IMG/VR virus record: IMGVR_UViG_3300028607_003725
Span: 12,011 to 76,010 of that record
Direction: 5' to 3' (one strand)
DNA: 64,000 nucleotides
Origin: a virus
Shown here: in pieces, positions 1-11,900 of the stretch
Layout of the letters: the number at the start of each line of letters is the position of its first letter
How positions within the stretch are numbered: position 1 is the stretch's first letter
Position numbers and translations under genes: made by a program
Notes under the pieces: model-generated
The model's input: the letters and a program-made list of their open reading frames with translations, nothing else
Databases searched by the model: none
Told to the model about the DNA's origin: nothing

Positions 1-18
1 TAATTAGGAGAAATTCAC

Positions 19-387
19 ATGACAGAAAAAATAGAAGATATGATACCAGATTCATATCCACTTGGAACAGACGGACCTTCTCAAACAGAAGTAGATTTGT
101 TAAAGAAGAAGTATGGTAAAGTTAGAGCATGCTTTACAGGAAGTAAGGTATATATAGTTAGAATGATGAGTAGATCAGAACACATGGTTCTTCAGAATGA
201 GATCTTTGAGAGAACCGAAGCTAATGATCCAGACTTAGATGTTGACTTTATGATTGCAAAAGATTTTACGATGTGGCCAAAGGATATTGATTGGGATAAA
301 GAACCAGGAGGAGCAGTACCTGTACTGTCTCAAGAAGTTTCAAAATTGTCAGGATTTGTTAAGGATAAGGAAAGTATAGAATTGTAA
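19..387 (+). CDS. Putative tail assembly chaperone, paralog 1 (122 aa)
   Basis: AGGAG Shine-Dalgarno upstream. Small acidic protein with LKKKYGKV..VYIVRMMSRSE and WP..PGGAVPVLSQEV..SGF. Lies just upstream of the tape-measure-like gene and resembles the next ORF. Confidence 0.6.
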   Translation: MTEKIEDMIPDSYPLGTDGPSQTEVDLLKKKYGKVRACFTGSKVYIVRMMSRSEHMVLQNEIFERTEANDPDLDVDFMIAKDFTMWPKDIDWDKEPGGAVPVLSQEVSKLSGFVKDKESIEL

Positions 388-473: not shown

Positions 474-1082
474 ATGGATATATCAAAGAAAATAGCCGAA
501 TGGAAAGCCAAATATGGTTCAGTCTTTATAGTTTCTATTGAAGATAAGTCCATTTATTATAGAACATTAACTGCTTGGGAAATCCAAAGTATAATTGATC
601 TCACTAAACAAAACAAAGCTTCCTTAGATATAGAAGAGTCTACGTGTTTATTTGGAGTATTAGCTCCTAGTCCTTTACCTACCTTTAGTAAACCTGGCAG
701 TATTTCCAGTTTAAGCGAAGAGATTTGGAATAAATCAACTCTGTCAGCTGATATTATGGCAAAAACTATAAAGGATAGTAGAGAGTGGAGTGAAAGTAGC
801 GTAGACCAAAATTATAATTTAATTATAGCAAGTGTTATGTGTAAGCTAATGCCCTCGTTAGACTTAGCTCATCTCTTGGAGTTACCTACCACTAAACTTG
901 TAAGGCTGGGAGCAATAGTAGAAAAGATAACAGGAGAACAATTCTTAGAAGGAGAATTACTTAGTAAACAGGGAACTAAGAAAAGCATGGGTTCTGATAG
1001 AGTTACTAATGAAATGGCAGATAAAACAGCAAATCTGTTGGCGAATGCTCTTAAACAGCAAAGAACAAAGGCTAAGATATAA
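474..1082 (+). CDS. Putative tail assembly chaperone, paralog 2 (202 aa)
   Basis: WKAKYGSVF..IYYRTLTAWE and GVLAP..PGSISSLSEEI parallel the motifs of ORF 19..387. Stop overlaps the next start (TAATG). Confidence 0.55.
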   Translation: MDISKKIAEWKAKYGSVFIVSIEDKSIYYRTLTAWEIQSIIDLTKQNKASLDIEESTCLFGVLAPSPLPTFSKPGSISSLSEEIWNKSTLSADIMAKTIKDSREWSESSVDQNYNLIIASVMCKLMPSLDLAHLLELPTTKLVRLGAIVEKITGEQFLEGELLSKQGTKKSMGSDRVTNEMADKTANLLANALKQQRTKAKI

Positions 1083-4000
1083 TGGCAACTGACGATTATA
1101 TTGATGATTTAGTGAATCCCGAGGAACAGGGTGAAAGTACAATAGCAAAAGGCATAGGCCAAGCGGCTACTACTTTAGGTATGTTTATGGGGATCCATAT
1201 GGCAGCCATGTTCATAGTCACTAAAGGTAAAATGAGAGCTTTTTCTGCTCTACAAAAATCAACCATCCCACGTATAAGAGCTGCAGCAACCCGTGCTGCT
1301 ACAACAACTCATTCTTTAACTGATTTCATTGCAACAGTAGGTCAAGGAAAAGGAACTGTTTCCCGTTTAGCGCAAAGTGTTTATGCGTCAAGTACTTCTA
1401 AAACAGCAGAAACACTAAGGGCAGGATGGAAAGATATATCAGCCTATGAAAAAATTGGAAAATTTAGAGAGCTTTCGAGGGCAAATAAAACTACTATTGT
1501 TGAACGATCTGTTGGTAAATATTTGAGGGAAGCAGCGGTATTTATGCCGTCATTCTATATAGCTGAGCATAATATAGGTATATTACATGATGGCCCAGAG
1601 AAGGAAGCAAAACCAGCCTGGTATAATTTACCAGGGCATGCTATAGGATTTGCAAAGTTTGTACCTCATATGTTGGCAATAGACTTAGGATTTAGAGGAG
1701 TATTGCATGGTGCAAAAATAGCAGCATCGCCTCTTAGGGGAATGTTAGATCCTTTAGAACATTCTATAGCAAATTCCCCCATAGCTGACGCTGCTGTAGA
1801 TGCATACAAATGGGCTGAACGTGGAGCATACAGAGAAAAGCAGATAGCAGGAATGAAGATAGGAGATATTATTGATCACATGGGTGTTGCAAAAGATGCC
1901 TTTGTTAAGTCTTTAAAAAGTCCTACTCGTACAAAAATGTGGAGACGAGATAAAGAAGTATTTTCTGGATATGAGAGAACTACAAATTCATTGTATAAAG
2001 TATATACTCATCATAGACAGCACATAAAAGTTCTAAGAAGCCAGCTTTACACAAAGAAATTAGAGCGTTATGATAAACGTATACAAAAAGCAGGTCTGAC
2101 CACTGAAGAATCCTTTAGACATAATTTTTCTGATTTTGTTAAATTTATGGACGAGCCTGGGATTTCTGGAAGAACAGACTATCAAGAGGCACTTTATAAA
2201 AGTAATAGAGCTGCCAGTGGGAATGAATTACTCGGTAAACAATATTATAATGAGAATGCAAAGACTCCATTTATTGCTAGGATTCTTGGGTTAAAAAGAG
2301 CTAAAGCATCTGATTATAAAGCTGGTGAAAAAACACTTGGAAAAATTTACGATACTGCTAGTAAAGATAAATGGAATGAAGGCACAGATACTATTTTAGG
2401 AAAAAGGAAAAAAGATTTTGTTAGTAAACTTCTATCTAATAATACCTTTATTCAGGAAAGATCAGGACAATCTGTAAATTTAGACTATTTAGATCCTAGA
2501 TATTGGGCTACAAAAGGTCTAAATAGTTTTCCTACGATTCTGGGATACGGCGTAATTGATTTGTTTCCCTTTAAGGTTATGACAAGGAGACCTGGGGATA
2601 GAGTAATGCTTGCTTCAGGACAAGTTCCATTAACTCCTTCCCAGCAAACGGACGCTTTTGGACGAAAATTGTTCCAGAAAGAATCACGAGCAGGCGAACT
2701 ACACGTAACTTATAAAAATGTATATAATTTCTCTTCAGAATTCAATGATGGAAGTCGAGGTCTAATCATGAGAAGAGCTGGAGATAAACATTATAGTTTA
2801 TGGGACTTTCAAGGATCTCAAGGAGCGAATGTTGCTGATGGTTGGGTTCAGGTAGGTAAAAATATAAAATTAGCTTTAAGAAGTGATTCTCCTAAAGGAC
2901 AAAGAGTGCATTACGAAGGTTTAGTTTCTGCTACAGATAAGAATACTAGGATGCCGGGAGAATTTAGTTCTAATCCATTTATGAGATTTATGCAGGAGAA
3001 GCTTAGTCTTTTGGATAATAAAGGCTCTTTTCCTAGTATATTTAGAAACTTACAAATGGTAATGCCCGAAGGGATGCAAAATTTCTTTAATGTTAGTGAT
3101 GCAGTAAGGGGTTCTAGATCTAGAAAAATTTTAGAAGATCTAAAAAAATTATCACAGCATAAGGTTGACGATATTGTACAGTCTAGTCATAAGCAAATGC
3201 AAATGTTAGACATTGTTAATCGTACTAAGGCGTTATCAGAAAGAGTAAGGAGAAGAAGTTTTGACAGTACGTTGTCGGATGACTATTTTTTTAATGATAT
3301 TATTAAGTTCTTAGATACGAATATGCCTGGTGATTTTTTAAAGGGTAAGAAAATACGTAGCGTAGATGATATATTTGATCTAGCTTCACACATTAGAAGA
3401 AATGTTGGAGAGAGTAATCTTAATATGTCTGAACGAGAATTGCTAAGAGTGGATGCTTTACTTAACGAAGCTCGTTTATCCAAAGACGTACTGAGAAGAG
3501 AAGTACATCCTGAGTTACCCGTAGAAAAACTTAAAAGATTTATATATGATTATTCAGTAAACTTCTCACGTACTAATAACTTAGGAAAACACGGTATAGA
3601 GGAAAGGATGCTTAACAAGGCGATTAAGGCCTTTGAAAATCAGCGTATAACAAAACAACAATTAACAGATCTAGAAGTTAGTATATTTTCTACTGACTTT
3701 AGAGAGGTAATTAGAGATACAGATTTTTCTAAGGGTCGGCTACTCGAAAAAATAGGGAAAGATGATGTTTCAAAAGTAATAGATAGTATAAAAAAGGGTT
3801 TAGTAAATAAATTCTCAGGAGCAGCAGATGGTCGTTCTGTGATAGACACAGCTCTTGCTAACACTGGTATGTTTGAAACAGCTTACTCAAAAGCGATAGA
3901 TACCGGAATTCCTGATTTAATTGATACATTACAGCTCACCATGGATAGTAACCCGTGGGTTGCCTACCCTACTGGTTTTAAAGAAGTGCTTGGACTAGGA

Positions 4001-7000
4001 TTACGATGGGGTATATCTACGGTTGATAAACTTGTAAGTTCGTTTGGTTTAGGATGGGATAAAGGAAGATTTAGTACACCAGGAGAAGTGATTGGATTAC
4101 AAGGTAGAAGACTTGCCACATTTAGTGCAGCTTTATTGGGGTATAGTGCCGTAGACAGCGTTACAGATGCCTCTGGCGCATTTGATGGGACATTTTTAGA
4201 TGAAGGACTAACAGTTGGATTAGCCGATCAGGCAGTACGTTTACGAATGCTAGCTGCTAAAACTTATGACGTACTTGGAGTAGATAATGCGGCTAGGTAT
4301 ATGGAAGGTCTTATGCCTGGTTCTATGAATGTGTTACCAGGGCTTGCTATTGGCGGCCTGGCCGGAGGCATGGTGGGCTCCGGGATTCCAGGAGCTATTG
4401 TTGGAGCCATGGTTAATGCCTATTTAGGGCCTCAATTAAAAGAAGGTCCTTTAAGTTTTTTATCTATAGCGCCCCCACTTGCTCCATTTGTTTCAGATTT
4501 AACAAAAAGCTATGATGAAGTTCAAGATATATATGAAGGAAAAGAATTACTTGCTAGAAGAAAAGGAGCTGGATGGACATTAGGACAAACTCCTATAGAA
4601 GGTGGCCGCATAGAAGGATGGGAGCTTCATTGGTACCCAAAGCTAAAATCCCAATATAAAGCAACTCCAGTTCTTTATGGCTCTAAGGTAGAACAATTCT
4701 TAGCAAAAGATGTACCCTTATTAGATTTTTCTATAATGGATATAATCGATCCTCAATATTTAACATACAAGCATTATGAAAATAGACCATACTTAATACC
4801 GGATACCCCTTTTACAGAAGTTCCAATTATTGGACCAGTACTGGGTGCTACTCTAGGTAGGGCTTATAATTTAGTGCATCCTTTAGGTCAGGTGGATCCA
4901 ATGCATGTGCAAGAGGCTGCATCGGCCTTTATGAAAGGAAACAGTTATGATTGGAAAGGTGGTGCACAGGACACGTTTGGTCCTCAATACCGAGGACTAG
5001 GGCCTGCAGGTGTTGGTTTAGCGGACAGGCAACCAGGACAACCTAATATAGGTAATATAGTTCTTTCTCCTTATGATATTAAACCATTGTTGGCAGAATC
5101 AGTATATAAAGGATGGATAGAGTGGATGGGGTTACCTGGATTTATAACATCAGCAGTAGCCTGGGGAGGGGATGAACCTTTTACTAATGTTCCTATTGCC
5201 CCTGCTGCTACTGATATGGATTCTTTTGCTAGATCTTATTGGGATTCTAATGCTGGAGATATGGCGTTAACTAATGAATTGTTTAGAAGATTTGTTCCTA
5301 GACCTAGAACTAGTTATGAAACTGTAGATCTTATACATAATGCTATGCCTGGTTGGATACCTGAACATTTACGGACTGGAGATCCCTATTGTTTACTACC
5401 GGATACTTTAGTAGAAACTACTAATGGTTTAACTAGGTCTGAAGATATTACAGATGGTATGCTTGTTAAAACTATGTATGGAAGATTTTATCCAGTAAGT
5501 AATACTGTAAGTAGGCCTGTTGAGGAGGAAATATATTGTATAACTTTGCCTGGATTAAAAGATTTTGAACTAAAAGTAACAGGGGAGCATCCTTTTTATA
5601 TAAAGCAAGGCGATGAGTATAAGTGGGTTTTAGCTAAAAATCTTACAACAGAGCATAGAGTAACTTATCCTTTGTTACAAATACAATTAAATAATATAAT
5701 AGACACTAATATTGAAATAGATGTTGAAGCTAAAATGGCTAAGCTCCTAGGTTTATTAGCTAGATGGACTAAATGGGGAAGTACCTTAGAGTATAGAGAT
5801 GAAATCCCCGATAACATAACTAAAGAAATTGATAGTCTTGTAAAGCTATTGTCAATAGATTTAGAATTAATTAAGACAATAGTTTATGAACATCAGAGTG
5901 ATGGAATGGCTGTTCCTTTAGTAACTTCAGATTTAGCTATAGTTTTAAATTATCTAGAACCGTTTAGAGTAAAATCTAGTACTAATGAAATAAAATATAG
6001 ATTTCATTCTCAAAAAGCTGCTTATAATACGTGGACTGGTCTGTTACAAAATAAAATATTTTCGTTTATTAATAATGATACTTTGACTATACGGAATCAA
6101 TTTGCTGCAGAGATTGCATATTTATTGGATATAGATATTAAGGTTACTGAATTTGAAAAGCCCTATTGTTCATTTAGCTTAGTTGATAGTAAAGTAGGCC
6201 CATTAGCAATCTTGTCTATAGAGAATATACGTAAAGAATATTATGAAGGCAATGTACACACTATAGAAGTATCAGATGATGTTACCTATTGTCTTCCGGG
6301 AGCTATTGTTCATAATAGTAAAATTACCCATGGAGAATTATATTTACCAGGGGAAGGATATGAAGCAGCTTTTAATCCAGATCTAACATTCCCTGTAGGA
6401 ATGTCCCGACTCGGACGTTCGGCTTATGACCAAGCACTGGGCATGATAGGACTGTCTAATATCGCAGAAGACCAAGAGGAGATTTTAGAAAAGGGTACGG
6501 CTATTCACAAAATGGTACAGAATCAGCTAATGATGATGGGCGCTACTACTAGAATTGAAGCGTTAGTTACAGATCCTAGCGCTAATCTCAGATCTTATGT
6601 GGATGTAATGTTAAAAGATCCTAGAGGTAACGAAATGCCTCTTGAAATTAAGAGTATATCTGCCAAAGGCTTTGAAAGATTAGATAGACCAAAATATTCG
6701 CATAAAATTCAGTTAAATTCTTATCTAGCAGTTATGGGAGTTAACAGGGGTAAATTTTTATATGTATCTCGAGAAGATCCAACAAAAACAAAGCAATTTA
6801 GTTTACAATTTGATCCTGATATGTGGGAACAAACATTAGGTAAGTTACGTGAAGCCAGATATCTTGCTCAAGAGTTCTTATCTCAAGGTTACGGTAGGGC
6901 TGCTGAAGGATACTCATATCTGGATAGAGCTAGAGTTTTATTAAACTCAGCTCCTTATTCAAAAGAGTACCGTGAAACATTCTCATTGCTTGAAGAACAA

Positions 7001-8950
7001 AAAGTTAGTGGACATTTGTCAGAACAAGAATCAGCACAACTGAGTAATTTAGAAGGTTATCACAAGGCAATGATGAGAAAGTATGAGATGTATCCTAGAA
7101 GGTTTACATTAGATAAACTTTTAGATCCGGATGCGGAGTATCAAAATCTATCCTCCAATGAATATATAGAACCAGCAGATACTTATTCATTAGCTGAAAG
7201 AATAGCTGGTGCTTCATGGGAGTATGCTACCCATCTTAGATCTCCTATACATTCAAAATTATTTGGAAGATACTCTCCAGAGGAACAGTATGATAGATTT
7301 GTAATGTATGGTGTTCCTTTTCAATCATGGGCAAGACCTTATGATACTTTTTTGAAACCCTATGCTAGGGGACTAAGGTCCGTTACTGATCCATTGCAAG
7401 GAGCTATGTCTTTTGCAACGGGAGGATTAATATTTGGAGGAGGCCCTGGGGCCTTAGCTGGAGCAGCAATAGGTGCTGCTTATGGGTCGATGCACGGAAT
7501 GTATAGAGCAATTACTGGTGACACGTATCGCCCACAGAACTTTAAAGATAAGGTAGAGATGCAAGAGTACTTTGATACAATTGAGTATATGAAAGCTGAG
7601 CAAATGTATATGGCTACAGGAAATCCAGATTATAGACGACAAATGGTAGGGACAATGAGAGGTTGGATTGAAACAAGTGGTGGTCAGTTTATGACAGTAC
7701 CAAATAGTGGAGGTATACAGGGCCATTATGGATATGATCCTGGAAGTTTGTTTGGAACCTCATCAGGACCAGCAGCCAGAGCTGCAAGGTTAATGAATAA
7801 TCCATATGCCCAAGGAATTGGGACTGATCAAGGGTTCGGATCACCGTGGAAGGGATTGGCTAATGTTTATCGTCGATTATTTAAAAGTGAAAAAACAATA
7901 AAAATATTTAGAGGAGTTGATAAGTGGCATAGAGGACAAATGGTACAACAGGGTAACTTTGTCGGAGGAGGAAAATATACTCAAAGTAGTCGTGCCCCTG
8001 CATCTCCGATGTATATACCTAAATCTGAAACAGCACTATATACTTCCGGTAGTGCTAAAGATGCAATGTCTTACGGAAGACGAGGCAGACGACCTGGAGC
8101 TCCTGAACCAACGTTGCTTGAATTTGCTGTTCCAGAAACATATGTTAGCAAAGCTGCAGTACAAATTAAAGGTCGTGATTTTAGTCATTATGTTTTTGAC
8201 GAGGGCATACCTAAACGTTTTTTAAGGAGAGTCTATTCCCCAAAAACAAGCCCCCAGAGTAGAGCCTTAAAAAAAACACAGAATCCAGCAGCTAAGAGTA
8301 TAGGTGGAGACAAAGGTTTTGGATCTCCGTGGCAGGGAACAGATGACCAAGAAGCTCTTAACTATGATGCAAATATTAATGTATTCAGCGGCTTCTCTGC
8401 TTTAGCTGCTTGGGATAGACCTTTTTGGACAGCATTCTTAGAGACTCCTGAAGATAAAAGAGATAGAATATTAGATCAGGTAGATACACGAATGGGTGAT
8501 ATGCTAAAAATTGCATGGGGCAGAGGTGAAGAAGTTGCAATGCCTTCAATGGATGTGTTTTTTAGTAATTATAAAAAACCGTCAGCATTAGAACCAATAA
8601 TGGGACCTGATACTGATATATCTGATTATATTACCGTTACTGCCAACTCAAGCGGACTAGATGCTCATGATTTTGGTTTTGGATGGAGAGATCAATTAAG
8701 ACGAATTCAAGATTCTGCTAATGCGATTTTACCGATTAATATTCATGGAAAAGACACTCCTGCCTTTGAAGCATCGGCAGTGTCACAGGGGGACATAAGT
8801 ACCGCTTTAACAAAAGTACTAACAAGGATGGGATATGAAGGAGCTAGAATACAAGTAAACTCTATGATGTCCGAAAGAGATGATACCATTCTTAAACTTA
8901 ATATAAGACGAGATTCAAGTATAGATATTATAAAGGCGTTATATGGCTAG
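1082..8950 (+). CDS. Tape-measure-like virion polyprotein 1 (2622 aa) with intein, PD-(D/E)XK nuclease and ART-like cassette
   Basis: Follows chaperone-like genes. Long helical K/R/A-rich body with Gly/Ala-rich hydrophobic segments (GLAIGGLAGGMVGSGIPGAIVGAMV; GGLIFGGGPGALAGAAIGAAYG). Embedded enzyme motifs listed separately. Confidence 0.72.
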   Translation: MATDDYIDDLVNPEEQGESTIAKGIGQAATTLGMFMGIHMAAMFIVTKGKMRAFSALQKSTIPRIRAAATRAATTTHSLTDFIATVGQGKGTVSRLAQSVYASSTSKTAETLRAGWKDISAYEKIGKFRELSRANKTTIVERSVGKYLREAAVFMPSFYIAEHNIGILHDGPEKEAKPAWYNLPGHAIGFAKFVPHMLAIDLGFRGVLHGAKIAASPLRGMLDPLEHSIANSPIADAAVDAYKWAERGAYREKQIAGMKIGDIIDHMGVAKDAFVKSLKSPTRTKMWRRDKEVFSGYERTTNSLYKVYTHHRQHIKVLRSQLYTKKLERYDKRIQKAGLTTEESFRHNFSDFVKFMDEPGISGRTDYQEALYKSNRAASGNELLGKQYYNENAKTPFIARILGLKRAKASDYKAGEKTLGKIYDTASKDKWNEGTDTILGKRKKDFVSKLLSNNTFIQERSGQSVNLDYLDPRYWATKGLNSFPTILGYGVIDLFPFKVMTRRPGDRVMLASGQVPLTPSQQTDAFGRKLFQKESRAGELHVTYKNVYNFSSEFNDGSRGLIMRRAGDKHYSLWDFQGSQGANVADGWVQVGKNIKLALRSDSPKGQRVHYEGLVSATDKNTRMPGEFSSNPFMRFMQEKLSLLDNKGSFPSIFRNLQMVMPEGMQNFFNVSDAVRGSRSRKILEDLKKLSQHKVDDIVQSSHKQMQMLDIVNRTKALSERVRRRSFDSTLSDDYFFNDIIKFLDTNMPGDFLKGKKIRSVDDIFDLASHIRRNVGESNLNMSERELLRVDALLNEARLSKDVLRREVHPELPVEKLKRFIYDYSVNFSRTNNLGKHGIEERMLNKAIKAFENQRITKQQLTDLEVSIFSTDFREVIRDTDFSKGRLLEKIGKDDVSKVIDSIKKGLVNKFSGAADGRSVIDTALANTGMFETAYSKAIDTGIPDLIDTLQLTMDSNPWVAYPTGFKEVLGLGLRWGISTVDKLVSSFGLGWDKGRFSTPGEVIGLQGRRLATFSAALLGYSAVDSVTDASGAFDGTFLDEGLTVGLADQAVRLRMLAAKTYDVLGVDNAARYMEGLMPGSMNVLPGLAIGGLAGGMVGSGIPGAIVGAMVNAYLGPQLKEGPLSFLSIAPPLAPFVSDLTKSYDEVQDIYEGKELLARRKGAGWTLGQTPIEGGRIEGWELHWYPKLKSQYKATPVLYGSKVEQFLAKDVPLLDFSIMDIIDPQYLTYKHYENRPYLIPDTPFTEVPIIGPVLGATLGRAYNLVHPLGQVDPMHVQEAASAFMKGNSYDWKGGAQDTFGPQYRGLGPAGVGLADRQPGQPNIGNIVLSPYDIKPLLAESVYKGWIEWMGLPGFITSAVAWGGDEPFTNVPIAPAATDMDSFARSYWDSNAGDMALTNELFRRFVPRPRTSYETVDLIHNAMPGWIPEHLRTGDPYCLLPDTLVETTNGLTRSEDITDGMLVKTMYGRFYPVSNTVSRPVEEEIYCITLPGLKDFELKVTGEHPFYIKQGDEYKWVLAKNLTTEHRVTYPLLQIQLNNIIDTNIEIDVEAKMAKLLGLLARWTKWGSTLEYRDEIPDNITKEIDSLVKLLSIDLELIKTIVYEHQSDGMAVPLVTSDLAIVLNYLEPFRVKSSTNEIKYRFHSQKAAYNTWTGLLQNKIFSFINNDTLTIRNQFAAEIAYLLDIDIKVTEFEKPYCSFSLVDSKVGPLAILSIENIRKEYYEGNVHTIEVSDDVTYCLPGAIVHNSKITHGELYLPGEGYEAAFNPDLTFPVGMSRLGRSAYDQALGMIGLSNIAEDQEEILEKGTAIHKMVQNQLMMMGATTRIEALVTDPSANLRSYVDVMLKDPRGNEMPLEIKSISAKGFERLDRPKYSHKIQLNSYLAVMGVNRGKFLYVSREDPTKTKQFSLQFDPDMWEQTLGKLREARYLAQEFLSQGYGRAAEGYSYLDRARVLLNSAPYSKEYRETFSLLEEQKVSGHLSEQESAQLSNLEGYHKAMMRKYEMYPRRFTLDKLLDPDAEYQNLSSNEYIEPADTYSLAERIAGASWEYATHLRSPIHSKLFGRYSPEEQYDRFVMYGVPFQSWARPYDTFLKPYARGLRSVTDPLQGAMSFATGGLIFGGGPGALAGAAIGAAYGSMHGMYRAITGDTYRPQNFKDKVEMQEYFDTIEYMKAEQMYMATGNPDYRRQMVGTMRGWIETSGGQFMTVPNSGGIQGHYGYDPGSLFGTSSGPAARAARLMNNPYAQGIGTDQGFGSPWKGLANVYRRLFKSEKTIKIFRGVDKWHRGQMVQQGNFVGGGKYTQSSRAPASPMYIPKSETALYTSGSAKDAMSYGRRGRRPGAPEPTLLEFAVPETYVSKAAVQIKGRDFSHYVFDEGIPKRFLRRVYSPKTSPQSRALKKTQNPAAKSIGGDKGFGSPWQGTDDQEALNYDANINVFSGFSALAAWDRPFWTAFLETPEDKRDRILDQVDTRMGDMLKIAWGRGEEVAMPSMDVFFSNYKKPSALEPIMGPDTDISDYITVTANSSGLDAHDFGFGWRDQLRRIQDSANAILPINIHGKDTPAFEASAVSQGDISTALTKVLTRMGYEGARIQVNSMMSERDDTILKLNIRRDSSIDIIKALYG
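5390..6316 (+). mobile_element. Intein, 309 aa, with degenerate LAGLIDADG-type endonuclease region
   Basis: Block A CLLPDTLV (Cys1), block B VTGEHPF, block F VHTIEV, block G IVHN followed by Ser+1. Exteins join as TGDPY|SKITHGE. Central MAKLLGLLARW resembles a decayed block C. Confidence 0.92.
6479..6870 (+). other. PD-(D/E)XK (RecB/Cas4-like) nuclease domain in polyprotein 1
   Basis: KGTAIH (6491-6508), E (6557), YVD (D at 6602), EIKS (6644-6655), QLNSY (6710-6724), GKFLYVSRE: canonical order and spacing. Confidence 0.85.
7817..8338 (+). repeat. Duplicated peptide motif IGxDxGFGSPWxG (7817-7855 and 8300-8338) flanking a 148-aa cassette
   Basis: IGTDQGFGSPWKG and IGGDKGFGSPWQG. 28/39 nt identical, differences mostly at third codon positions. 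Confidence 0.9.
7856..8299 (+). other. ADP-ribosyltransferase-fold-like domain, catalytic status uncertain
   Basis: IFRG (7904-7915), LYTSGSAKDAMSYG, LLEFAVP and HYVFDEGIPKRFLRRV match the strand order of ART-fold domains. The usual catalytic Glu position appears to hold His. Confidence 0.55.
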
Positions 8951-11900
8951 AATAAATGATATAGAACAAGAACCAATATTTTCTCCTACCTATAAAGATC
9001 CGGAGAGAAGGGCATTAAGCTTAGGTATTCTTTTATCTCTTCCTACATTATTAGGAATAGTACAAAGTAGAGCTAAATTAATAAAAGGTGGTGTCTTTCA
9101 GAGTATGGCAGGTTTTGGTTCAGGAGCGAAGGCCAAGAGTGTACTACTTAAACGGATTGAGGCACTAGCTAATACTCGGCAAGCCGCTCTTGGTGAAATT
9201 GGTTCCTCAATCTCAGAACAACTTAAGGCAAATACTGATTTAATAAATAATCTTATTAGTGATCATAGTGCTGCAGAATTACATTTTGGAATTGCGGGTG
9301 GTCGTCCTTATAAAGTTACTGGACCGGGTAGCTTGTTACAACAGGAGCTATTCACAGGATCAGCCACCTGGGACACTGCGCAGCATAATCTATTAATAAA
9401 ATCGAAGGACGTAGCTCATGCTAAGTATAAAACTGCGCTAAGTGATTGGTGGTTTGGTAATATGCAATTTACAGATAAAAGAGGAGCTTATGGGCAGGTC
9501 CGGGACAGTATCCTCTCTTTTCAGGGAAACTATCTGAAGCATACTCCTCGTAAATTGGAGGAGTATCTTGTAAATGTTCACGATGTTGTGCATAGAATAT
9601 TATTACCGAGATGGCAGAATGGGTATGCTCCAGGAACATCGTATGATATAAATTTAAAAGGCGCATTAATTGAAAAAGATATTCCTATACATAAAGATTT
9701 AGTACAGGCAGCTAATGACTTGGCTGAAGCCCGAAGAAAGCTTGCTGACTTTCATGGCAATTATCAATGGTCAGGAGAACAAGTACATAAAAGATTAATA
9801 GAACTTGCTGCACAAGAAACTAAATCCCAAATAGGTGAGGGTTCTGGTTTTGGACCTTGGAGTAAACCTTCGAGATTTTCTGCATTCGATAAGGGCGCAT
9901 TAAATCCTGAGTTTATGTCTATGTTAAAAAATGATGAGTCGTATCGTCTAAATTTTTATAAAAACTTAGAAGCTCTTTATAATAGAGTAAAAGGGAATAC
10001 AATAAATCTTCCTCCTTGGGCAACAGGGGTTTCTAGTGAAAATCCATTTATTTTAAGTGATACGATGACTGCGGAATCTACTGACTTTAGAAATAAGTTA
10101 TTCCCAGGTAGAGAAAATTATAGTTTTACAAATGCCTCGGTAACAGAATTAACAGAAAAATTAGAAAGCAGAAATACTGGTTTAACTAAAGAACAAATGA
10201 AACATGTTTTGAGTCCGGAGAGATGGGGAGCTTATCATGACTTTCATAAAAAATCATTCGAGAGCATTGATCCTGTTTTTGCTGAACAGGTCCATGGACA
10301 ACGAGGAAAAGCCCAACATCTAATAGCAGTAAGAGATTCTTTTCAAGCAGAAGTTAATAAGATAAAACGGAATGTAGTTGACCTGCTCAGTATGGAAAGA
10401 ACATCAGGGAATCCAGCATACACTGCCCATATAGAGGCTTTAGCAGAGGCAGCAGGTATGGAGAGAAATCAGTATATTACTTTTATAGAGGGGTTAAAAA
10501 TAAAAGCTGAAATTGGAGCTGATCTTAGCGGAAGAATGCCCTTTAAACATGCTAAGATTATAATCATCAGACCAGGACATACACCCATTCCATTAAACAT
10601 TCCATTATCAGAATATGGAGCTTTTTTACCAAAAGCAAATTCTAAAATAAACACTTCTCCTTTGTTTTTAGATGCATTTGTACAGCCTACCATACAAAAT
10701 CTTACATCTATAGATGTAGCTATGATGAAAAAAATGCAAGTTAATGTTTCACATTATTTCAGAGATCTAGTACAGTCAGGGTATCAAAGTTCTGAAAAGG
10801 TACAGGGTCTTCATAAAAGTTATTGGGGATCATTTACGTCACTAGTACATACTGAAGTTGCTGGAATTAATCAGAACTTTTTTAGACGACAGAAAGTAGT
10901 TTCTTCAACTCTGGATATCCTAAGAGGTGCAGTAAAAGAAAGTGGAGTAGGATCAAGAAGATGGTACGCTAAGTTTACTGCAGGCTGGGAAGCATTACAA
11001 GAGATACAAAATATAAGTAAGAGACAATCCACAATTTTAGGTTTAGATTTTGAATTCAATGCTTCTAAAACCTTAGGCTTTGATGCAATTCAAGGACTAG
11101 TGGCAAAGGAAACTACTCGTCCTTATCAGGCTGCTTATCAAATAACTAGAGGGTCTAAAAAACAATTATTTAATCATTGGATTAGACCAGATAACTGGGA
11201 TAATATACGGAATAATGTAAAACGATTTATGATTCAACAAGAAGGTATGGGGGGAATGATTGAGTATTCTAAATTAGAGGCTATAATGCAAGGAGCACAG
11301 GATCCTCTTTCTAAAGGAGAGGCAGTTGTAGATTTTAGTATTGGATTTGATGAGCAGGAGAAAAATTGGAGATTTTTTACCGATGAACAAAAAATAGATA
11401 AATCTATATTTAAAAAAGGATCTATTCAATCTGTTAGAGTTCATACGGAAGCCGGTTCTTTTGTTGAAATAGCTAGAGAAATATTTAGATCACCTGATGG
11501 AGGTATCAAGTTTTTAACTCATGGAGGAGAAGAGGCAGATCTTATCTTATGGAATAAAAGAATAACTGGTATATTAGAAGAAATTAAACGAGGAAGAGAC
11601 TTTGGCATAAGTGAGGGTGAGATAGGGTTGCTAAAAAGATTACATAAGGAAACCTCATTAACTAGTTTGTTAGCAAGAGGAGCATCTTTTGATACCCACT
11701 CAATGGCAATGGTTGTTTTAGCAGAGGAGGCAGGCAGCACTAAGTTTGGATTAACTGATATTTTTCATAAGCTTCTTACCTTATCTGTAGATACTAAATT
11801 AGTTACTAGAGATGACGTAAGTAATGCTTTGAAAGCAATTGGAGGAGAAATAAAAGAGGGAAAATTGACAAAAGCAGGTAAAGCTGCATTAAAGGAATTT

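What the first reader, a model, noticed from the sequence alone, without database searches (positions are those of the whole stretch)
7817..8338. ART-like cassette bracketed by a duplicated IGxDxGFGSPWxG motif: possible swappable effector slot
Seen: a basic 148-aa segment with FRG / YTS / LLEF / GIP..FL strands sits exactly between two 13-aa repeats whose DNA differs mainly at synonymous sites, implying protein-level selection. Established: T4 injects the ADP-ribosyltransferase Alt, and polymorphic toxins exchange tips at conserved junction motifs. Inference: the motif is a cleavage or docking signal and/or recombination joint for modular cargo. The apparent Glu-to-His change may mean altered chemistry or an inactive NAD- or nucleic-acid-binding domain.
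Basis: partly seen in the sequence, partly recalled or inferred. Interest (0 to 1): 0.78.

Follow-up and report, generated by a model that had tools for sequence, protein, structure and literature searches.

The report
Swappable enzyme slot in phage tail protein
A giant protein carried inside the tail of an uncultured marine phage has a built-in slot, marked on each side by the same short conserved motif, that holds an ADP-ribosyltransferase-like domain here and unrelated enzyme-like domains, or nothing, in related phages. It looks like a plug-in site for proteins injected into the host.

Summary
Two copies of IGxDxGFGSPWxG (window 7817-7855 and 8300-8338) bracket a basic 148-residue segment in a 2622-residue ORF (1082-8950). 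The copies differ mostly at synonymous sites.

The segment models as an ADP-ribosyltransferase (ART) fold, and every structural match with Z of 5 or more is an ART-superfamily protein. It belongs to an unnamed family that also occurs as stand-alone proteins of about 180-390 residues; one looked up lies in marine phage contigs. The strand-1 Arg is invariant. The position expected for the catalytic Glu is His here and varies across the family, so catalysis is open.

By gene order and C-terminal similarity, the host protein corresponds to gp145 of Bacillus phage 0305phi8-36. That is a virion protein encoded between the tail chaperones and the tape-measure and hub genes.

Among relatives, the motif is absent, single, double or triple. 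In 20 proteins the motif count equals the number of inserts plus one. Inserts are of at least four unrelated kinds: ART-like, HExxH...E, Pol-beta-nucleotidyltransferase-like and basic low-complexity. Close relatives differ in slot content.

The "swappable cargo slot" reading is supported. Cleavage at the motif is inferred only.

It is closest to "polyvalent proteins" and enzyme-bearing tape-measure proteins, so I rate it a new variant of a known kind. The scan had noted the motif on this same window, not on other DNA.

The parts
1082..8950 (+). Giant 2622-aa ORF (P0001). It is the counterpart of gp145 of Bacillus phage 0305phi8-36, a virion protein encoded between the tail chaperone genes and the tape-measure and hub genes.
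   Evidence: ORF. The C-terminal 190 aa hit 0305phi8-36 ORF145 (tblastn E 8e-7). Gene order matches: sheath, tube paralogues, small ORFs, this ORF, second giant ORF, hub-sized ORF, gpJ/gp6-like wedge.
7379..7681 (+). Conserved module upstream of the slot (aa 2100-2200): a Gly-rich hydrophobic segment followed by a helical YFD..EY..A..Y..TG segment. It was used as the left anchor of the slot.
   Evidence: It matches 142 of the collected homologues by phmmer. In most distant relatives it abuts the C-terminal domain directly (gap about -5).
7799..7855 (+). Junction motif copy 1 (extended N2240-G2258; core IGTDQGFGSPWKG at 7817-7855). It is followed by G-L-x-x-V, as in other upstream copies.
   Evidence: Predicted disordered, pLDDT about 50.
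7856..8299 (+). 148-aa basic cassette between the motif cores.
7889..8242 (+). ART-fold core of the cassette (aa 2270-2387). It contains the invariant Arg2277 (FRG, nt 7910-7912) and Thr2321/Ser2322 (YTS, nt 8042-8047). His2369 (nt 8186-8188) sits at the position expected for the catalytic Glu.
   Evidence: AF2 model. VIA-align: KptA Z 9.4, TreX Z 8.1, LT Z 6.3 and others. Foldseek. Profile hit to C3-type ART 4xsg_B, E 0.016, with YRG and STS aligned. Family alignment A1.
8282..8338 (+). Junction motif copy 2 (extended N2401-G2419; core IGGDKGFGSPWQG at 8300-8338). It is followed by T-D-D-Q-E-A, as in terminal and single copies (x-D-P-x-x-A).
   Evidence: Disordered in the second model, pLDDT below 50.
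8339..8947 (+). Conserved, mostly helical C-terminal domain of about 200 aa (WDRPFW..., AHDFGxGW...). It is the right anchor of the slot and is inferred to be the hub-proximal end of the tail-lumen protein.
   Evidence: Alignment A2 of 70 homologues. Model pLDDT 73.9. No informative fold match. Similar to the C-terminus of 0305phi8-36 gp145.

Best explanation
Window 7817-8338 is a modular cargo slot near the C-terminus of a giant tail-internal virion protein. The phage is an uncultured marine contractile-tailed phage, and the protein is the counterpart of gp145 of phage 0305phi8-36.

The slot lies between a conserved glycine-rich/helical module and a conserved 200-residue C-terminal domain. 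It is delimited by a linear motif of about 20 residues, (R/K)xxxNPxAxGxGxDxGFGSPWxG, in a disordered linker. Relatives without cargo have one copy. Each inserted module adds one copy, so every module has the motif on both sides.

In this phage the module is a basic ART-fold domain of about 120 residues from an unnamed family. The same family also exists as small stand-alone proteins; the one looked up lies in marine phage contigs.

Proposed mechanism (inferred): the giant protein is built into the tail lumen and leaves the tail first when the sheath contracts. This carries the cassette into the host envelope or cytoplasm, where it binds NAD+ and modifies or depletes a host target to favour infection or counter defence. 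The motif acts as a junction signal. Most likely it is a processing site that frees each module from the carrier, about 35-40%. Otherwise it is a hinge or docking element.

Shown here: the motif duplication, the fold, the modularity across homologues, and the tail-module context. Inferred: ejection, cleavage, enzymatic activity and target.

The confidence given (0.6) is for the core claim: a motif-delimited modular cargo slot holding an ART-fold domain in a tail-internal protein. My sub-claim estimates are: ART fold about 0.85, modular slot about 0.9, cleavage at the motif about 0.35-0.4, active NAD-using enzyme about 0.4.
For: Observation.

Fold:
- AF2 model with a confident core.
- All 34 VIA-align matches with Z of 5 or more are ART-superfamily proteins: KptA 9.4, TreX 8.1, VPA0770 7.3, TccC3, ParT, diphtheria toxin, PltA, LT, scabin, RES, DarT, pertussis toxin.
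- Foldseek PDB and AFDB top hits are also ART proteins.
- The A1 profile hits a C3-type ART with YRG and STS aligned.
- Language-model neighbours are Tox-ART-HYD1, exotoxin A and TreTu, as leads only.

Family: 17 stand-alone homologues of 184-543 aa. One is encoded beside the portal and major capsid genes, just upstream of an unannotated 517-aa ORF, in marine contigs.

Modularity:
- 21 homologues have one motif, 18 have two and 2 have three. Motif count equals inserts plus one.
- Inserts fall into unrelated classes by BLAST and HMM: ART-like (P0001, P0005, P0006); HExxH...E (P0022, L017, P0021 insert 2); a GG..x13..DxD nucleotidyltransferase-like class (P0021 insert 1, P0023 insert 2); and basic low-complexity.
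- Motif-bearing proteins form one clade on the C-terminal-domain tree. P0001 is sister to the cassette-less P0003/P0004. The ART-bearing P0005 is sister to P0007, which has a different insert.

Both copies are under selection:
- Their differences are mainly synonymous.
- Copy-specific signatures (upstream GFSSPW/Y-G-L-K-x-V; terminal GFGSPY/W-x-G-x-D-P) are kept across a whole subclade.

Context:
- Synteny with 0305phi8-36, where gp145 was found in virions by mass spectrometry according to the record.
- Sheath and tube genes lie upstream and a baseplate wedge gene downstream.
- The same gene order is seen in homologous loci.

The cargo classes match those listed for polyvalent proteins: ARTs, metallopeptidases and Pol-beta NTases (PMC5512222).
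Against: - There are no proteomic or biochemical data, so cleavage at the motif is untested. No protease was identified, and the C-terminal domain has no protease-like fold match.
- No acidic residue is invariant in the family. The position expected for the catalytic Glu is His in this protein, and is D/E in only 8 of 21 members. The conserved Glu of LLEF aligns to a non-catalytic strand. So classical ART activity is doubtful.
- The residue mapping is indirect, because no residue-level structural superposition was available.
- Fold-search E-values are individually weak (Foldseek 0.025 and above). The case rests on consistency and on Z-scores up to 9.4.
- The three in-slot ART cassettes form one group on the domain tree (91/85 support). 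Their patchy distribution could therefore reflect one gain plus losses rather than repeated swapping.
- Ejection of gp145-type proteins has not been shown experimentally for any phage that I could find.
Confidence: 0.6

Rival explanations
1. The motif is not cleaved. It is a flexible hinge, or a docking peptide for the tube lumen, the hub or a tail chaperone. The inserted domains stay covalently tethered to the ejected tail-lumen protein and act in cis, as the phage N4 virion RNA polymerase is packaged unprocessed.
For: Both motif copies are predicted disordered. No protease was found in the protein, and the C-terminal domain shows no protease fold. Polyvalent proteins such as N4 vRNAP, ArdC and TraC1 are transferred full-length (PMC5512222). 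Enzyme domains fused to a tape-measure protein work as fusions in P23-45 gp96 (PMC10770324).
Against: A docking function does not explain why each added module brings one more motif copy, so that every module is flanked on both sides. The motif does not pack onto the C-terminal domain in the model.
Confidence: 0.35
2. The ART-fold cassette in this phage is catalytically inactive. It would be a decayed or repurposed module that serves as a spacer, or as a binding domain for NAD, nucleotides or nucleic acids, rather than as a transferase.
For: His2369 occupies the position expected for the catalytic Glu, and no acidic residue is invariant in the family. The domain is strongly basic. In other relatives the slot holds only basic low-complexity sequence.
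Against: The strand-1 Arg, the following Gly, Trp2282 and the S/T pair are conserved across 21 diverged sequences. The fold is confidently predicted, which indicates selection on a pocket. The top structural match, KptA/Tpt1, works without a catalytic Glu (the chemistry is from my own knowledge). The cassette is identical in independent marine samples.
Confidence: 0.35
3. The second motif copy is a neutral scar. A domain plus part of the linker was inserted by illegitimate recombination, duplicating the linker, and the copies have no function of their own.
For: Domain insertions often duplicate flanking sequence. Most of the wider family lacks both motif and linker yet keeps the flanking domains.
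Against: The copies have diverged at synonymous sites while keeping the residues. Both copies are conserved, with copy-specific signatures, across many diverged proteins. Three copies flank two inserts in P0021 and P0023. Neutral scars would have decayed.
Confidence: 0.07

Closest known systems
Polyvalent proteins of phages and conjugative elements (Iyer, Burroughs, Anand, de Souza, Aravind 2017, PMC5512222)
   Same: It is a giant phage protein that joins unrelated effector-type domains: a PD-(D/E)xK nuclease and an ART here, and HExxH and Pol-beta-NTase-like modules in relatives. It is encoded among virion genes and presumably delivered at infection. Processing into separate domains was proposed for that class too.
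   Different: The ARTs described there are of the H-Y-D clade, and R-S-E ARTs were said not to occur in genuine polyvalent proteins; this cassette has Arg on strand 1. The carrier here is a tail-lumen protein adjacent to the tape-measure gene, whereas the carriers cited in that paper are mainly head-packaged or conjugation-delivered proteins, and the term 'tape measure' does not occur in it. A repeated junction motif bracketing each module is not described there ('linker' occurs 0 times).
Enzyme-bearing tape-measure proteins, e.g. Thermus phage P23-45 gp96 (PMC10770324)
   Same: A giant tail-internal protein carries transmembrane segments and enzymatic domains that enter the host with the DNA.
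   Different: Those domains are fixed parts of the protein. No interchangeable slot or bracketing motif is reported, and no ART.
Phage T4 Alt (virion-packaged ADP-ribosyltransferase)
   Same: It is an ART-fold protein carried in the virion and injected to modify host proteins. It has an Arg-type strand 1.
   Different: Alt is a separate head protein with a full R-S-E site. Profile comparison of the cassette family with Alt is not significant (hhalign probability 0.13%).
Junction motifs of polymorphic toxins (Rhs DPxGL, CdiA VENN)
   Same: A short conserved motif marks the border between a conserved carrier and variable toxin or effector domains. In Rhs it is also a self-cleavage site (my own knowledge, not tested here).
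   Different: Those motifs precede a variable C-terminal tip. Here the slot is internal, the motif recurs on both sides of each module, and the conserved C-terminal domain is retained. No Rhs or CdiA repeats were found by Pfam.
Ejection proteins of podophages (cyanophage A4 pre-ejectosome, PDB 9k3a; PMC12002296)
   Same: Large internal virion proteins with embedded enzymatic domains. Residues 1419-1606 of chain B match the cassette model at Z 5.0.
   Different: The match is marginal, and the paper does not mention an ART domain. These are head-packaged core proteins, not tail-lumen proteins.

Membership tests
ADP-ribosyltransferase (ART) superfamily | Split beta-sheet ART fold | tested here: met
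   The AF2 model core has pLDDT above 85. All 34 PDB representatives with Z of 5 or more are ART-fold proteins, top Z 9.4 (rmsd 3.2, 88 aligned) and 8.1 (rmsd 2.9, 95 aligned). Foldseek probabilities are 0.9-0.99.
ADP-ribosyltransferase (ART) superfamily | NAD-contacting Arg or His at the end of strand 1 | tested here: met
   Arg2277 in FRG is invariant in 21 family members. It aligns with the YRG Arg of a C3-type ART. The LT alignment range (model 39..155 to chain 4..138) is consistent with Arg7.
R-S-E clade ARTs (cholera toxin, C3, Alt/VIP2) | S-T-S motif on strand 2 | tested here: inconclusive
   Y-T-S-G-S here. The family shows mostly T-T or T-S but not invariantly. It aligns with the STS of C3.
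R-S-E clade ARTs (cholera toxin, C3, Alt/VIP2) | Catalytic Glu ([QE]xE) at the start of strand 5 | tested here: inconclusive
   By strand order and the C3 profile alignment, LLEF is the strand after STS. The catalytic position would then be His2369. That column is D/E in 8 of 21 members, H in 3 and T in 4. No residue-level superposition was available.
R-S-E clade ARTs (cholera toxin, C3, Alt/VIP2) | Detectable sequence homology to T4 Alt | tested here: not met
   hhalign of A1 against T4 Alt gave probability 0.13%, E 0.45.
Polyvalent proteins (Iyer et al. 2017) | One large phage or plasmid polypeptide combining two or more unrelated effector-type domains | tested here: met
   The protein has a Cas4/PD-(D/E)xK nuclease at aa 1797-1930 (PHROGs E 8e-17) and the ART-fold cassette. 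Relatives add HExxH and NTase-like modules.
Polyvalent proteins (Iyer et al. 2017) | Packaged in the virion and delivered into the host with the DNA | not testable with these tools
   There is only indirect support. The gene lies in the tail module. The distant homologue gp145 of 0305phi8-36 is annotated as found in virions by mass spectrometry.
Tail tape-measure protein | Gene between the tail chaperone genes and the baseplate hub gene | tested here: met
   The gene order matches 0305phi8-36. However, in that phage the ruler role is assigned to the next gene, gp146 (PMC2147016).
Tail tape-measure protein | Determines tail length | not testable with these tools
   No virion morphology is available for this uncultured phage.
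Rhs / CdiA polymorphic toxins | Rhs/YD or filamentous haemagglutinin repeats with a DPxGL or VENN junction | tested here: not met
   Pfam finds only intein domains in the 2622-aa protein. The junction motif is different.

The most novel reading that the evidence does not exclude
The NPxAxGxGxDxGFGSPWxG element is a previously undescribed processing or junction signal. It would let a lineage of contractile-tailed phages load interchangeable enzymes (ART-like, zincin-like, nucleotidyltransferase-like) into a tail-lumen carrier protein and release each one by cleavage at the flanking motifs during assembly or injection. That would make the carrier a polyprotein-like, plug-and-play delivery system for early-acting or anti-defence effectors. 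A further possibility is that the Glu-less, strongly basic ART-fold family acts on nucleic-acid phosphates, as KptA/Tpt1 does, rather than on proteins.
Probability: 0.3. Interest if true: 0.8.

Novelty: new variant of a known kind. Interest (0 to 1): 0.62.

Why it matters
Phages are known to inject a few enzymes with their DNA (T4 Alt, N4 and crAss-type RNA polymerases, polyvalent proteins). How new cargo is recruited into the virion is poorly understood.

Here a single defined site in a tail-lumen protein accepts different enzyme modules, each bracketed by the same conserved motif. That gives a testable rule for cargo recruitment and possibly for release. It also points to an unnamed ART-fold family that may be widespread in marine phages, and to a natural design that could guide engineering of phage or contractile-injection-system payloads. 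If the motif proves to be a cleavage site, it would be a new processing signal.

Tried and rejected
- Pfam and PHROGs on the cassette: no family. Pfam on stand-alone homologues and on other inserts: nothing above threshold.
- hhalign of the cassette family against T4 Alt: not significant.
- P0105, with 14 'motif' matches, is an unrelated TPR-like repeat protein and a false positive.
- The GSGFGPWSKP sequence in the next ORF (nt 9846). That region has no homologues other than itself, and the motif is absent from the equivalent gene in L006. I treat it as unsupported.
- C-terminal domain as a possible protease or docking fold: no PDB match with Z of 5 or more. The motif does not pack on it in the model.
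- P0035 as a natural gene split at the motif: it is a contig-edge fragment.
- P0007 insert as a decayed ART: no HMM signal, E 1.4.
- Atlas leads for other cargo (Gad2 at 0.83 for the NTase-like insert; LPD23/LPD1 at 0.90-0.95 for the HExxH insert) were not confirmed by Pfam, by PDB profile search or by tblastn against phage records. They remain leads only.
- Base composition: the cassette (GC about 0.41) does not stand out from its flanks.
- Metagenome contigs of four runs: no joints, indels or variants across the slot. No RNA holder is listed.
- Nucleotide search against phage records: no match.
- Literature search for GFGSPW: nothing relevant.


Full report
**1. What is in the sequence**

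The finding lies in a single 2622-residue ORF, 1082..8950 on the + strand.
- IGTDQGFGSPWKG occupies aa 2246-2258 (nt 7817-7855).
- IGGDKGFGSPWQG occupies aa 2407-2419 (nt 8300-8338).
- Exactly 148 residues lie between them.

Ten of the 13 residues are identical. Of those ten codons, four are identical and six differ only synonymously. The similarity extends upstream to N-P-x-A-x-x, giving a unit of about 20 residues. In 30 shuffles of the protein, the best 13-residue window pair reached 7-9 identities, against 10 observed. The intervening segment is basic (K+R 18%, D+E 7%) and contains FRG, YTS, LLEF and GIPKRFL.

**2. What the cassette is**

Pfam and PHROGs do not recognise it. An exhaustive phmmer search with aa 2100-2622 found 350 relatives. 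Among them are 17 proteins of 184-543 aa that match only the cassette; one has two copies.

The alignment of 21 domain copies (A1) has these invariant residues: Arg2277 (FRG), the next Gly, Trp2282, Pro2351 and Phe2372.

The AlphaFold2 model built on this alignment has mean pLDDT 75.8, with the core at 85-96.
- A Foldseek-independent comparison with 48,161 PDB representatives gave 34 chains with Z of 5 or more, and all are ART-superfamily proteins. They include KptA/Tpt1 (Z 9.4), TreX (8.1), the RES-type toxin VPA0770 (7.3), TccC3, ParT, diphtheria toxin, PltA, heat-labile enterotoxin, scabin, DarT and pertussis toxin.
- Foldseek against PDB and against AlphaFold clusters gives the same picture, with weak E-values but probabilities of 0.9-0.99.
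- A profile of A1 hits a C3-type ART (4xsg_B, E 0.016). The family's YRG aligns to the enzyme's YRGDD, and its T-T-S aligns to STS.
- Language-model neighbours include Tox-ART-HYD1, exotoxin A and TreTu. These are leads only.

I conclude that the cassette has an ART fold.

**3. Is it an active transferase?**

The strand-1 Arg is invariant and the strand-2 S/T pair is mostly kept. The C3 alignment places LLEF on the strand that follows STS, not at the ExE position.

The model's strand order is LLEFAVP, helix, AVQIK, SHYVF, then GIPKRFLRRVY. By this order, the catalytic Glu of R-S-E enzymes would correspond to His2369. That column is D/E in only 8 of 21 family members, H in 3 and T in 4. No acidic residue is invariant anywhere in the family.

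The best structural match, KptA/Tpt1, uses Arg/His chemistry on nucleic-acid phosphates rather than a catalytic Glu (my own knowledge). Together with the strong positive charge, this keeps a non-protein target possible. Comparison with T4 Alt is not significant.

**4. What carries it**

The record is a 77.7-kb viral contig, estimated 41% complete. It is present in marine metagenomes from several studies.
- Upstream of the ORF lie a major head protein, a tail sheath, tube-like paralogues and small ORFs.
- Downstream lie a 2945-aa ORF, a 5143-aa ORF and a gp6/gpJ-type baseplate wedge gene.
- The last 190 residues of the ORF resemble ORF145 of Bacillus phage 0305phi8-36.

That phage has the same order: sheath, tube, tube paralogue, two tail chaperonins, ORF145 (a virion protein by mass spectrometry), ORF146 (assigned as tape measure), hub, gpV, gpJ (PMC2147016). 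Homologous loci elsewhere show the same arrangement.

The ORF also carries an intein (aa 1437-1745), a Cas4/PD-(D/E)xK nuclease (aa 1797-1930) and glycine-rich hydrophobic segments. It is best described as a gp145-type tail-internal protein that resembles a polyvalent protein.

**5. The slot across homologues**

I anchored the slot on the conserved module before it (aa 2100-2200) and on the C-terminal domain after it (aa 2425-2622). I then measured the distance between anchors in about 140 homologues.
- About 85 homologues have the two modules abutting, with no motif.
- About 17 have a 40-55-residue linker with one motif.
- About 20 have inserts of 80-1000 residues.

With a slightly relaxed pattern, 21 proteins have one motif, 18 have two and 2 have three. 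In every multi-motif case the inserts lie between motif copies, so the motif count equals inserts plus one.

The inserts fall into unrelated classes by BLAST and HMM:
- ART-like: P0001, P0005, P0006.
- A class with invariant HExxH and downstream Glu residues: P0022, L017, second insert of P0021.
- A class of about 430-500 residues with GG-x13-DxD, typical of Pol-beta nucleotidyltransferases: first insert of P0021, second insert of P0023.
- Basic low-complexity inserts in a subclade of about 11 proteins.
- Several singletons.

0305phi8-36 gp145 has a K/E-rich linker of about 100 residues at the same place and no motif. An IMG/VR scan gave the same spectrum.

**6. Evolutionary pattern**

On a tree of the C-terminal domain, with motif columns removed, all motif-bearing proteins form one clade (support 98).
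- P0001 is sister to P0003/P0004, which have a single degenerate motif and no cassette (support 95).
- P0005, which carries an ART cassette, is sister to P0007, which carries a different insert (support 100).
- Starred branches force at least two changes for the ART label.

On the cassette tree, the three in-slot ART domains group together (91/85). One capture followed by losses or replacement is therefore as possible as repeated capture. In either case the slot content changes between close relatives.

Upstream motif copies are followed by G-[LI]-x-x-[VIL]. Terminal and single copies are followed by x-D-P-x-x-A. Copy-specific variants (GFSSPW/Y upstream, GFGSPY/W terminal) are kept through a whole subclade. 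Both copies are therefore old and under purifying selection, which argues against a neutral scar.

**7. What the motif does**

Both models place the motif in disordered segments, pLDDT about 45-50. It does not pack on the C-terminal domain. That domain has no informative fold match and no protease-like features.

The rule that each module is flanked on both sides is what one expects of a polyprotein-type processing site. Polyvalent proteins were proposed to be processed by embedded zincin peptidases (PMC5512222), and an HExxH module occupies this very slot in some relatives. However, I have no direct evidence of cleavage.
- The apparent split gene, P0035, is a contig-edge artefact.
- Contigs from four runs show no deletion or joint forms.
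- The similar GFGPW in the neighbouring ORF has no comparative support.

I put cleavage at about 35-40%, a non-cleaved hinge or docking role at about 35%, and a neutral scar below 10%.

**8. Comparison with what is known**

The closest concept is the polyvalent protein (PMC5512222). It covers the same cargo classes and the same presumed delivery. Three things differ:
- The ARTs reported there are of the H-Y-D clade, and R-S-E ARTs were stated not to occur in genuine polyvalent proteins.
- The carrier here is a tail-lumen protein.
- No bracketing motif is described there.

Enzyme-bearing tape-measure proteins such as P23-45 gp96 (PMC10770324) are a precedent for enzymatic payloads in tail-internal proteins, but not for an exchangeable slot. 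Polymorphic-toxin junction motifs work similarly at C-terminal tips, but this protein has none of their defining repeats. A literature search for the motif found nothing relevant. Earlier notes of this scan on the same window had already flagged the motif and the tape-measure position.

**9. Verdict**

The ART-fold and swappable-slot interpretations are supported. Cleavage, docking and catalysis remain untested. I rate it a new variant of a known kind, with interest 0.62.

Noticed in passing
window 5390-6316: A 309-aa intein (weak Pfam Intein_splicing/Hint_2 hits) interrupts the giant ORF about 50 residues upstream of the nuclease domain. Relatives carry inteins with LAGLIDADG domains. In P0098 and L033 an intein sits inside the C-terminal domain instead.
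   Followed up: partly
window 6470-6871: A Cas4/PD-(D/E)xK-type nuclease domain lies within the same giant tail protein (PHROGs phrog_1706 E 8e-17, phrog_2506 E 3e-11).
   Followed up: partly
L001 10001-10681 (TARA marine contig) and L002: A stand-alone 226-aa homologue of the cassette (P0084) is encoded just upstream of an unannotated 517-aa ORF, a P22-type portal and an SU10-type major capsid protein in a phage contig with podovirus-type head genes. The stand-alone proteins share an N-terminal segment, ..GNIADAxDAxLYAxEGEFG.., that could be a packaging signal.
   Followed up: partly
P0157 (391 aa) and P0155 (543 aa): P0157 fuses the ART-like domain to a region with a near-threshold NT5C 5'-nucleotidase match (Pfam E 5e-5, 23.6 bits against a cutoff of 24.8). 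P0155 carries two tandem copies of the ART-like domain.
   Followed up: no
PDB 9k3a chain B residues 1419-1606 (cyanophage A4 pre-ejectosome): This region matches the cassette model at Z 5.0, among ART-fold hits. The A4 paper (PMC12002296) does not mention an ART-like domain in its ejection proteins. The match is marginal and is only a lead.
   Followed up: partly
window 9846-9875: The next giant ORF contains IGEGSGFGPWSKP, which resembles the junction motif. That region has no homologues in the protein search, and the motif is absent from the equivalent gene of L006.
   Followed up: yes
L005 14062-15561 (0305phi8-36 ORF145 C-terminus): The cultured-phage homologue has a Lys/Glu-rich linker of about 100 residues exactly where the slot lies, without the GFGSPW motif. 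The site therefore tolerates insertions well beyond the motif-bearing clade.
   Followed up: partly
L008 8726-10740 (upstream of the window in the same contig): Two adjacent ORFs (201 and 459 aa) hit phrog_9206, which is labelled 'major head protein'. They sit where 0305phi8-36 has its tail tube and tube paralogue, right after the sheath gene, so the PHROG label is probably misleading here.
   Followed up: no
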